From assembly GCA_964016885.1 (NCBI GenBank), contig OZ024741.1, positions 50,592,001-50,656,000 of the forward strand: a DNA stretch of 64,000 nt. Reading direction: 5' to 3'. Source of the DNA: Eledone cirrhosa (taxonomy: Eukaryota). The position numbers and the translations under genes were made by a program. This document shows, piece by piece, positions 48,140 to 50,157 of this stretch (within the stretch, counting starts at the first letter, position 1; each line of letters starts with the position of its first letter). The notes under the pieces are model-generated. The model saw only the letters and a list, made by a program, of their open reading frames with translations. It searched no databases and was not told where the DNA came from.

Positions 48140-48548
48140 ACAAATGTCTTTATTCTAAAAATTCCTTTCATACCTACAGATGTTCCATTTGTCAAACTAA
48201 GTTTTGTTATTTCAATTAACAAATCTCAGGGTCAATCCCTCAAGGTAGTTGGACTTGATCTCTCTAGTACATAAGTCTCCCACGGTCAACTCTATGTTGG
48301 TTGCTCACGAGTTGGAAGCAGCAACAATTTATTCATTTGACATCAACAAAAAATTACACAACGAATATTGTTTACCCTGAGGTGCTTCAAGTTTGACAGA
48401 TTTTCATTTCTATATTTTAATATCATTACAATTTTGATATTTTTTATAAAATATAGATATTTTGAAATAATTATGAGAAAAAATATATCTTCATATTTAT
48501 TGTTTACTAATCTGAATAAGAACAGCAGTAACCAGGGCAACGCCGGGT
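48140..48548 (+). mobile_element. Helitron helicase C-terminal remnant and 3' hairpin
   Basis: [42 protein letters not shown] (Pif1-type motifs V/VI). Hairpin CCAGGGCAACGCCGGG near 48531-48546; terminal CTAG missing. Confidence 0.85.
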
Positions 48549-48647
48549 CAGAGATGGCAACATGAATAGACATGTTATTTTTATCTAAAGACATTTTTTC
48601 CAATTCCACCCCGCCCGTCCCTTCAATCTATCTAATTTCTCATTCTT

Positions 48648-48683
48648 TCTTCTGATGAAGGACTAGCGTCCGAAACGTTAAGA
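48648..48683 (+). ncRNA. Minimal hammerhead ribozyme (family A)
   Basis: TCTT-CTGATGA-A-GGAC-TAGC-GTCC-GAAAC-GTT-AAGA. Loopless palindromic helix III (AACGTT). Confidence 0.8.
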
Positions 48684-49113
48684 CCCTCTTCCTGCTATTT
48701 CAGGCGTTAATCTAATATATTCCTTCTATATACTGTACCGATTATTTCTGTTTACCTTTTACACACACACACACACACACACATATATATATATTAAATT
48801 ATGTGTTAATTTAACACCAACACTTCAGTATACAGCGTAGAACACTGAACGAAGTCCACAAGAGGGTCTGTTAACTCCGGAGTAAATTTATAAAGAAGAG
48901 GTATAAGTCAACATTTCATAATTTACTTCTTTTATATATATACAATATATATATATACAATATATATATATTGTATATATATATATATATATATATATAT
49001 ATATATATATATATATATATATATATATATATATATATATATATATATATATATATATATATATATATACAATGATATTAAATAAATGGAAACTATATTT
49101 ATAAAGCCATATT

Positions 49114-49174
49114 TATTCTATCATATATATTTCAAAGGTACCAAAATTTTGGTACGCTTTCATCAGATAAAATA
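49114..49174 (-). ncRNA. Hammerhead ribozyme (family C), probably inactivated
   Basis: TATTTTAT-CTGATGA-AAGCGTACCAAAATTTTGGTACCTTT-GAAA-TATATAT-G-ATAGAATA. G occupies the cleavage (H17) position. Confidence 0.65.
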
Positions 49175-49699
49175 CAAAGTTTGTTTTATAAATTTTGACA
49201 TAATCAAGGAAAGATACCTTAACGGTTCAAGTTTTCCGCTATCCAAGGGAAACTAGAACCGTTAAGGTATCTTTCCTTGGTTATGTATATATATATATAT
49301 ATATATATATATAAAATATAGAAATGGCTTCTACAGGACTAGAACTGTTTCATTCGGGAGAAATCATTGAGTACCTTTTTTACTGTGGTTACCCCAGATT
49401 GAACCCAGGATAAACTTATATATATATATATATATATATATATATATATATATATTTGGTGTGGGATGCTTAAAAGCGTCCGTATGCGGTAGGCCGTTAG
49501 AGCACTCGATGCTCTTACAGAGCAGAGTATAATATCACATAAGAAATGGAGAATCAGTGGTGCGACGAATTAGAATTTATTAGACATATTACAATCATTT
49601 CTTTGGCAACTAGCTCGAGGTACGATCGATGCGAGGATCGAAACTGACTCTGAAATCGCAAGTTCTTCAGATATTTGGAAATTCTGCTTCAAGGGATAA

Positions 49700-49796
49700 A
49701 GACGTATCTGAAGAACTTGCGATTTCAGAGTCAGGTTCGATCCTCGCATCGATCGTACCTCGAGCTAGTTGCCAGAGAAACGATTGTAATATGTCT
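49700..49796 (+). ncRNA. Atypical hammerhead with expanded domain II (inverted partner at about 49582-49674)
   Basis: AGACGTAT-CTGAAGA-[62 nt]-GAAAC-GATT-GTA-ATATGTCT: 8-bp helix I and a canonical helix III. The base of helix II is non-canonical. Confidence 0.5.
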
Positions 49797-49920
49797 AATA
49801 AATTCTAATTCGTCGCACCACTGATTCTCCGTTTCTTATGTATATATATATATATATATATATATATATATATATATTAATTCAAAATATTAACAAAATA
49901 GATATTCTTGTGATCAATTA

Positions 49921-49987
49921 TATTTTATTATACATATTTCAGAGATACTGAGTTAAGTTCAACAGTACGTCCTCATCAGATAAAATA
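49921..49987 (-). ncRNA. Type I hammerhead ribozyme (family B)
   Basis: Homologue of 37009-37075; core and helix I conserved, differences mainly in and near loop II. Confidence 0.7.
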
Positions 49988-50157
49988 AAATGATACATGA
50001 CATACCCTGACATAGTAGATGGTTAAGATTCAGTCATATTAATAACTCTGGAAAACCTTCTTGTTGAGTGCTTCCAATCTATTGTAAAACTCATTCTTTG
50101 CTGTATTCATTGAACTTTGTTTAACTTTTATATATATATATATATATATATATATAT

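What the first reader, a model, noticed from the sequence alone, without database searches (positions are those of the whole stretch)
48548..50130. Pile-up of hammerhead-bearing, (TA)n-docked Penelope-like modules and fold-backs
Seen: 1.6 kb holds four different HHR-type motifs (48648+, 49114-, 49700+ with an inverted twin, 49921-) and two long inverted repeats, in 90-300-bp non-coding modules mostly separated by (TA)n. Each module's 3' tail, about 45-80 nt after the predicted cleavage site, abuts a TA/CA tract. Established: Penelope-like elements carry minimal type I HHRs in their pLTRs, make inverted 5' ends, and some clades target microsatellites. Inference: this genome hosts a multi-family set of short non-autonomous ribozyme retroelements (retrozyme-like) that repeatedly home into the same (TA)n tracts and build ribozyme arrays. 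I do not know of a description of such arrays in cephalopods but cannot verify novelty.
Basis: partly seen in the sequence, partly recalled or inferred. Interest (0 to 1): 0.85.

Follow-up and report, generated by a model that had tools for sequence, protein, structure and literature searches.

The report
Nested Penelope retroelement ends in microsatellites
This 1.6-kb stretch is a pile of six short, cut-off ends of known Penelope-like retrotransposons that sit in TA repeats; their hammerhead-ribozyme motifs (cleavage untested) occur about 70 times per megabase in this genome, and their paired short and long ends likely record the element's enzyme priming both DNA strands.

Summary
In detail: four hammerhead (HHR) motifs, two fold-backs and (TA)n-bounded modules lie at the stated places, far above chance. 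The retrozyme reading does not hold. Four of the six modules trace upstream into coding Penelope-like elements (PLEs): three to the Hydra clade, one to a Neptune-type element. The other two are related end fragments. Each family has two fixed 3' ends about 80-105 nt apart, both docked in (TA)n. Inverted insertions pair one short with one long end (54 of 58), and junctions differ copy by copy, so each insertion formed separately. Short copies stop at a sharp 5' limit on a TCACT initiator-like motif, likely the transcript start, and the HHR is usually copied uncut. Pile-ups are common here (23 chains of five or more segments in 0.99 Mb). Hydra PLEs with HHRs and (TA)n targeting are already described from octopus. 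New here: the scale (about 2x10^5 motifs extrapolated, about 29 families), near-identical intact 781-aa frames, and the strict end pairing. Cleavage and transcription are untested.

The parts
48550..48762 (+). M0: 5'-truncated 3' end of a Neptune-type PLE; minimal type I HHR, C3 at 48652, extra A after A9, predicted cut after 48679; 3' end runs into (AC)n(TA)n
   Evidence: long copies carry a GIY-YIG domain with CxxC linker upstream
48795..48932 (-). M1: diverged post-HHR segment plus tail of another HHR family; no HHR in this copy
   Evidence: 67-70% identity to the 3' parts of HHR hits in L222, L166, L158, E 3e-15 to 2e-13
48933..49069 (.). (TA)n tract with interruptions; docking site of M1 and M2
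49070..49235 (-). M2 forward arm: Hydra-clade pLTR fragment; HHR C3 at 49166, G at position 17 (49122); ends at the family's short end
   Evidence: parent with RT and CxCx5C-GIY-YIG remnants about 1.1 kb upstream
49239..49285 (+). M2 inverted arm: starts at the family's 5' limit and stops after 47 nt in (TA)n; gives the small fold-back
49314..49416 (-). M4: fifth family; forward arm 49367-49314 begins inside the HHR core (C3-U4-G5 lost), joined to an inverted tail 49368-49416
   Evidence: 14 matches in the 0.99-Mb sample; other copies keep the full core; junction
49456..49673 (-). M5 left arm: HHR twin (C3 49670), short end, then 81-nt tail (49456-49536) to the long end
49674..49840 (+). M5 right arm: long-stem-II HHR (C3 49708, A.A at 10.1/11.1, predicted cut after 49788); ends at the short end
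   Evidence: parent with CxCx5C-GIY-YIG domain about 2 kb upstream
49878..50036 (-). M6 forward arm: Hydra-clade pLTR fragment, HHR C3 at 49979, predicted cut after 49929; short end
   Evidence: parent with RT and endonuclease remnants about 2 kb upstream
50037..50128 (+). M6 inverted tail running to the family's long end, docked in (TA)n

Best explanation
The stretch is a nest of six separate insertions of Penelope-like retroelement 3' ends (three traced to Hydra-clade parents, one to a Neptune-type parent) in one (TA)n region, likely made by target-primed reverse transcription from both nicked strands. Steps: (1, shown) each family has a pLTR with an HHR, a short 3' end about 50 nt after the predicted cut and a long end 80-105 nt further; both ends abut (TA)n. 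(2, inferred) the element's GIY-YIG domain nicks both strands of a (TA)n tract, and the two 3' ends prime cDNA on element RNA, one at the short and one at the long site, helped by a few nt of TA microhomology next to a conserved ACTC...GAGT hairpin. (3, shown as outcome) the two cDNAs stop early and are joined head to head at variable microhomology junctions, giving (TA)n-long arm|short arm-(TA)n. (4, inferred) many templates begin at an initiator in the pLTR only 64-80 nt before the HHR, so priming near the 5' end of the transcript yields 100-350-bp solo-pLTR inserts. (5, inferred) every insertion leaves (TA)n on both sides, so targets multiply locally and chains build up over time. (6) The HHR is mostly copied uncut; whether it cleaves is untested, and its self-complementary stem III predicts activity as a dimer only.
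For: Parents: co-linear long copies lead to same-sense RT/endonuclease remnants for M2, M6, M5 with CxCx5C linkers and to a Neptune-type domain for M0. A related family has intact 781-aa frames with RWK, DKT, YRDD, CxCx5C and GIY-YIG-like motifs, six copies 1-17 nt apart in 2346, folding like telomerase RT; one such locus is a 6-kb palindrome with a short end on one side and a tail on the other. End pairing: 54 of 58 classifiable inverted insertions are short+long, p 2e-12 against 50%. Junctions vary among 30 M6 copies; arms within an M2 palindrome differ by 2.4% against 3.1-4.5% between copies and share private changes (17 copies). 3' ends in simple repeats: 28/29, 29/29, 28/29, 27/29 against 7-20% background. 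5' limit: no M6 and one M2 copy ends in the roughly 140 nt upstream of the limit, while 15 of 29 and 23 of 30 end downstream of it; TATAWA lies at -31 in 8 of 12 long M6 copies. Clustering: dispersion 2.0; 61% of TA-tract gaps are 40-450 nt against 38% in the null; 92 of 473 such segments match HHR modules against 0 of 473 controls. In vitro precedent: a PLE protein nicks and extends both strands and starts at two internal sites that define the tail (PMC11167929).
Against: No biochemistry or RNA data. In vitro, the anole protein showed no difference in start site between strands (PMC11167929), unlike the strict pairing here. 13 inverted pairs could not be classified and 4 were short+short or long+long; that count includes this window's own pairs and one locus twice. 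M2's inverted arm in the window ends at neither family end. M2 long copies lack a TATA box at -31 (0 of 6), and an extra cap-derived G was not supported. Only 92 of 473 short inter-TA segments could be assigned. Loci came from the best 40 hits of each search, so they favour copies like this window's. No coding parent was traced for M1 or M4.
Confidence: 0.85

Rival explanations
1. The short modules are independent non-autonomous elements (SINE- or retrozyme-like) that are transcribed and copied as units by PLE proteins in trans.
For: Many copies are under 350 bp with a sharp 5' limit; 22 of 24 M2-like arms that hold the core start within 90 nt of it; retrozymes are proposed to derive from pLTRs (10.64898/2026.07.22.740005); one small all-short clade has support in the M2 tree.
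Against: Junctions are not inherited; short and long copies mix on trees (10 changes against 9.8 shuffled; 7 against 6.4); no tandem monomers in the window; no pile-up of 5' ends at the cut site (2 of 34).
Confidence: 0.12
2. Same elements, but the inversion arises by snap-back self-priming of one cDNA (or from an antisense template) rather than by two primed strands.
For: Arms within one insertion share private changes; self-priming was proposed for rotifer PLE palindromes (PMC3846280).
Against: Junctions with unequal arms, fillers and no palindromic centre are common; either arm can be the longer; strict short+long pairing needs a second defined site.
Confidence: 0.2
3. Clustering reflects tolerance (insertions survive only in gene-poor, microsatellite-rich regions), not local multiplication of targets.
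For: TA tracts are themselves very unevenly spread, and HHR counts follow them (Spearman 0.59); density is still twice background 1-1.5 kb from a module.
Against: Gaps of 40-450 nt exceed a null that keeps each 10-kb tract count (61% against 38%, max 42%); modules abut tracts on both sides.
Confidence: 0.25
4. The cluster is a functional ribozyme array that processes a read-through RNA.
For: Three motifs lie on the minus strand within 0.9 kb and have self-complementary stems III that could pair.
Against: One has G17, one lost its core, two are in a 137-bp fold-back that would sequester them; neighbours differ at all 29 other M6 loci; such chains occur about once per 43 kb.
Confidence: 0.03

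Closest known systems
Hydra-clade PLEs, incl. Hydra-1_Obim (Craig et al. 2021, PMC8557442; seen: passages, sections 6 and 11, supplement part 2 and search passages)
   Same: RWK, DKT and CxCx5C motifs, C-terminal GIY-YIG, (TA)n preference, HHR near the 3' end, often with an extra base on both sides of stem II; inverted 5'-truncated partner; tail at one end only
   Different: Described from few families; here about 29 HHR families by flank clustering (not all Hydra), 3' UTRs of 0.5-2.4 kb, tails of 80-105 nt instead of 30-40, a C.C mismatch in stem II or stems II of 60-100 nt, and near-identical intact frames
Poseidon PLE of Anolis carolinensis (Frangieh et al. 2024, PMC11167929; seen: parts 1-2 of 4)
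   Same: Both strands nicked and extended, two internal RT start sites bounding the tail, AT-rich target, uncut RNA as template
   Different: No strand asymmetry of start sites in vitro; here inverted insertions pair short with long in 54 of 58
[quoted passage not shown]
   Same: Type I, self-complementary helix III, scattered single motifs from truncated PLEs, pairs on opposite strands 100-700 bp apart; M0 has the extra base after A9 and G10.1-C11.1
   Different: Counts there are 2,000-9,000 per genome (other descriptor); M2, M5, M6 lack G10.1-C11.1
Metazoan non-LTR retrozymes (PMC7229834, passages; 10.64898/2026.07.22.740005, part 1 of 5 and passages)
   Same: Short, non-coding, AT-rich, type I HHR, PLE-related
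   Different: Retrozymes are head-to-tail repeats of one monomer; these modules are head-to-head, of different families, and continue into coding elements
Adineta vaga Penelope families (Arkhipova et al. 2013, PMC3846280; seen: passages)
   Same: Inverted pLTR, optional tail, solo pLTRs, TATA box plus TCACT initiator-like motif in the pLTR
   Different: Low copy number, target-site duplications visible; solo pLTRs were put down to recombination or deletion

Membership tests
Hydra-clade PLE | Single ORF with telomerase-like RT and C-terminal GIY-YIG | tested here: met
   781-aa frame; model pLDDT 85, top structural matches telomerase RTs; Pfam gave no hit; remnants upstream of M2, M5, M6
Hydra-clade PLE | RWK and DKT motifs | tested here: met
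   in the intact frame and in 23 and 32 of 32 aligned relatives; not checked in the broken parents of M2, M5, M6
Hydra-clade PLE | CxCx5C linker before the endonuclease | tested here: met
   intact frame and parents of M2 (L315), M5 (L331), M6 (L312)
Hydra-clade PLE | Insertion into (TA)n; HHR near the 3' end | tested here: met
Hydra-clade PLE | RT phylogeny inside the Hydra clade | not tested
   no tree with reference PLEs was built; one named homolog is from Apostichopus japonicus, a species with described Hydra families
Neptune-clade PLE (M0) | CX2-5CxxC linker and CCHH-type GIY-YIG at the C terminus | tested here: inconclusive
   degraded domain with the expected Cys/His pattern about 0.6-0.7 kb upstream; read by eye, no RT recovered
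Non-LTR retrozyme | Two or more head-to-tail units, each with an HHR | tested here: not met
   no such repeat in 48548-50130; modules are of different families and orientations
Non-LTR retrozyme | No link to a coding element in cis | tested here: not met
   long copies continue into RT/endonuclease
Non-LTR retrozyme | Self-cleavage and circular RNA | not testable with these tools
   no RNA holder listed
Type I hammerhead ribozyme | CUGANGA/GAAA/UH core with three covarying helices | tested here: met
   28 motifs: 93% cells paired, 16 of 19 pairs with two-sided change, 0 of 500 shuffles as high; position 17 not G in 68 of 69, stem III self-complementary in 61 of 69 against 13%. The descriptor asks for part of the pairing, and the rows are related
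Type I hammerhead ribozyme | Self-cleavage | not testable with these tools
   needs in vitro transcription

The most novel reading that the evidence does not exclude
Most of this genome's roughly 200,000 hammerheads are cDNAs of the PLE transcript's own 5' leader, made by an asymmetric RT dimer with one subunit fixed at each start site; some solo copies regain a promoter from the flanking (TA)n and spread in trans, so the genome shows retrozymes being born from an active Hydra-clade element, while head-to-head inserts seed fold-back RNA and new microsatellites on a genomic scale.
Probability: 0.25. Interest if true: 0.75.

Novelty: new member of a known kind. Interest (0 to 1): 0.48.

Why it matters
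How PLEs integrate, why they leave a tail at one end with an inverted partner, and what their hammerhead does are open questions. This genome holds a very large natural record of the reaction, with a strict short+long rule and a sharp 5' limit, plus near-identical intact frames of a compact (772 aa from the first Met) enzyme that targets (TA)n, so the mechanism can be tested directly. It also warns annotators: such fragments look like SINEs, MITEs, miRNA hairpins or retrozymes. The locus itself is ordinary for this genome.

Tried and rejected
Fixed-length SINE reading of M6: suggested, rejected because the 5' 100 nt are an inverted tail with variable junction and the equal length came from choosing top hits. 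Inherited palindromic (MITE-like) reading of M2: rejected. Cap-derived extra G at the 5' limit: G in 8 of 14 truncated M2 arms but mostly explained by the opposite arm, and 2 of 29 in M6; not supported. 5' ends at the HHR cut site: no pile-up. Rfam: only miRNA-like hairpin matches below threshold. Pfam and PDB sequence searches of the intact frame gave nothing useful. RNA runs: no RNA holder listed. Contigs of four DNA-type runs cover the modules at very high depth, but no piece spans the stretch, so adjacency was not checked independently. Earlier scan notes: none. The tail hairpin motif was found in only 11 of 27 long-end hits (5% background), so it is not universal. Literature searches showed no paper on genome-wide HHR counts in cephalopods beyond 235 Rfam loci in giant squid, nor on strict end pairing; subscription papers, Repbase reports and bioRxiv supplements were not visible.

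Full report
Observation. The region 48548-50130 consists of six non-coding modules between TA/CA tracts. A strict type I descriptor finds three hammerhead motifs in 1321 non-repeat nt against 0.014 on average in 500 shuffles. A relaxed descriptor adds the motif at 49708. Both inverted repeats are present. Rfam has no hammerhead match. The window lies on a 416-Mb contig of a 3.0-Gb genome; the taxon was not established.

The motifs look like real hammerheads. In 99 evenly spaced 10-kb stretches (989,600 nt) the relaxed descriptor gave 69 hits against 0, 3 and 2 in local shuffles. That is about 70 per Mb, or roughly 2x10^5 in the genome by extrapolation; the figure is rough because hits are clumped. 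Features that the descriptor does not ask for also hold: position 17 is not G in 68 of 69, and stem III is self-complementary in 61 of 69 against 13% for random words. In 28 aligned motifs of the M2/M6 type, 93% of cells pair and 16 of 19 pairs change on both sides, beyond all 500 shuffles; part of this pairing was required by the descriptor, and the rows are related. These motifs mostly have A-U at 10.1/11.1 and a pyrimidine mismatch at the fourth pair of stem II (25 of 26). Published Hydra-clade motifs also depart from G-C there (PMC8557442 supplement). The hits fall into about 29 families by 3' flank.

The modules are ends of longer coding elements. Searches with whole modules returned equal-length copies flanked by (TA)n, which at first suggested SINEs. 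Alignment showed that the first 100 nt of M6 are an inverted 3' tail joined at a different point in each copy. Searches with the forward arm alone removed the bias: 14 of 29 M6 and 7 of 30 M2 copies run on upstream. Following long copies led to same-sense RT or endonuclease remnants about 1.1 kb (M2), 2 kb (M6) and 2 kb (M5) upstream, each with the CxCx5C linker that Craig et al. give for the Hydra clade. M0 leads to a degraded Neptune-type endonuclease. M4 is a fifth family whose core was cut by the junction. M1 is a diverged post-HHR segment and tail of a sixth. No coding parent was traced for M1 or M4.

A related family is intact. A protein search with one endonuclease gave 59,941 first-look candidates (150 scored), many in 781-aa open frames. 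Six such frames differ by 1-17 of 2346 nt. The protein has RWK, DKT, YRDD, CxCx5C and GIY-YIG-like motifs, and its model matches telomerase RTs best. Its pLTR holds a long-stem hammerhead of the M5 type, and one locus is a 6-kb head-to-head palindrome with the short end at one side and the tail at the other, the same layout as the small modules.

Insertion rule. Distances from the predicted cut to the first tract are bimodal, mostly 25-75 or 100-175 nt; 78% lie within 200 nt against 23% for random points. Family ends run into simple repeats in 28/29, 29/29, 28/29 and 27/29 copies (background 7% and 20%). Among inverted insertions, 54 of 58 classifiable pairs join one short-ended to one long-ended arm; 13 more were unclassifiable; the 29 loci found with a tail-bearing query were left out; the count includes this window's pairs and one locus twice. 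Arms of one M2 palindrome are closer to each other (2.4%) than to other copies (3.1-4.5%) and share private changes. I infer that both nicked strands prime, one at each start site, and that the two short cDNAs are joined. The anole PLE protein extends both strands and starts at two sites that bound the tail, but showed no strand asymmetry in vitro (PMC11167929). A tail at one end only and an inverted partner are known in outline (PMC8557442; PMC3846280).

Why so short. Truncated arms reach at most a TCACTAYC motif, 64 nt (M6) or 80 nt (M2) before C3; no M6 copy and one M2 copy ends in the next 140 nt, and survivors run on for hundreds of bases. A TATAWA box lies at -31 in 8 of 12 long M6 copies but in none of 6 M2 copies. 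TATA plus TCACT was noted as a putative pLTR promoter in rotifer Penelope. The likely reading is that RT primes near the 5' end of the transcript and runs off at its start. A cap-derived G was not supported. The hammerhead is mostly copied whole: 24 of 34 M2-like arms in the sample start upstream of the core and 2 near the cut, in line with the in vitro finding that uncut RNA is the template. Short and long copies mix on trees, though 130-nt alignments have little power.

Clustering. Motif counts per 10 kb are overdispersed (2.0) and follow TA-tract number (rho 0.59); density near a module is 150-350 per Mb; chains of five or more 40-450-nt segments between tracts occur 23 times in the sample. 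Such gaps are 61% of all gaps against 38% in a null, and 92 of 473 match the module library against 0 of 473 controls. The window's four passing motifs in 1.6 kb exceed the sample maximum of three, so it is a dense but ordinary example. Neighbours differ at all other M6 loci, so chains do not move as units.

Comparison and novelty. Hydra-clade PLEs with hammerheads and (TA)n preference are listed for Octopus bimaculoides. Opposite-strand hammerhead pairs from truncated PLEs were reported in 2014. The retrozyme criterion of tandem monomers is not met in the window. Published counts are 2,000-9,000 minimal motifs per genome, about 5,000 in mussel and up to 120,000 retrozymes in axolotl, and 235 Rfam loci in giant squid; descriptors differ, so the comparison is loose. 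My searches found no account of this scale in a cephalopod or of the strict end pairing, but the library lacks most subscription papers and Repbase. Verdict: new members of a known kind, with features that make the PLE integration mechanism testable. Interest 0.48.

Noticed in passing
L203:8704-9569 (G000:C4:268008704-268009569): A 310-bp unit repeated head to tail 2.8 times at 100% identity, each unit with a hammerhead motif, between two long (TA)n tracts: this one fits the retrozyme definition.
   Followed up: partly
L325:1372-8464 (G000:C3:316595001-316605000): Two intact 781-aa Hydra-type frames head to head, 4 nt apart in sequence; many more inverted pairs in the protein search. Suggests recent activity.
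   Followed up: yes
window 50141-50581: 13 copies of a 34-bp unit made of (TA)n plus 18 unique nt; the repeat family to its right begins only at 50581. Similar short iterations sit at junctions in L062 and L305, possibly repeated re-priming.
   Followed up: partly
window 47960-48547: Helitron-like 3' end: a broken helicase-like reading frame (motif identity recalled) and a GC-rich hairpin directly joined to the 5' end of M0.
   Followed up: partly
window 37067 (-), 37578 (-), 1855 (-), 51479 (-): Further hammerhead-like motifs; 37067 and 37578 are second copies of the M6 and M0 families in another small cluster.
   Followed up: no
window 49123-49130 and family copies: Stem III of many motifs is itself a short (TA)4 run; M1 begins a few bases after that position, and L072 has a TA expansion there, so the ribozyme may be a target of its own element.
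   Followed up: no
L158, L196, L198 (random sample): Motifs with stems II of 85-106 nt, the longest seen; not among the published Hydra examples.
   Followed up: no
L320:8585 upstream (G000:C2:171.23 Mb): An M5 copy in which a short piece of end and tail precedes about 1.1 kb of non-coding UTR: a partial tandem without ORF.
   Followed up: no
window 46481-47946, 40916-44013, 39920-40477: Long (TGT/TGC)n tract, a 3-kb 10/20-bp minisatellite and a 62-bp array.
   Followed up: no
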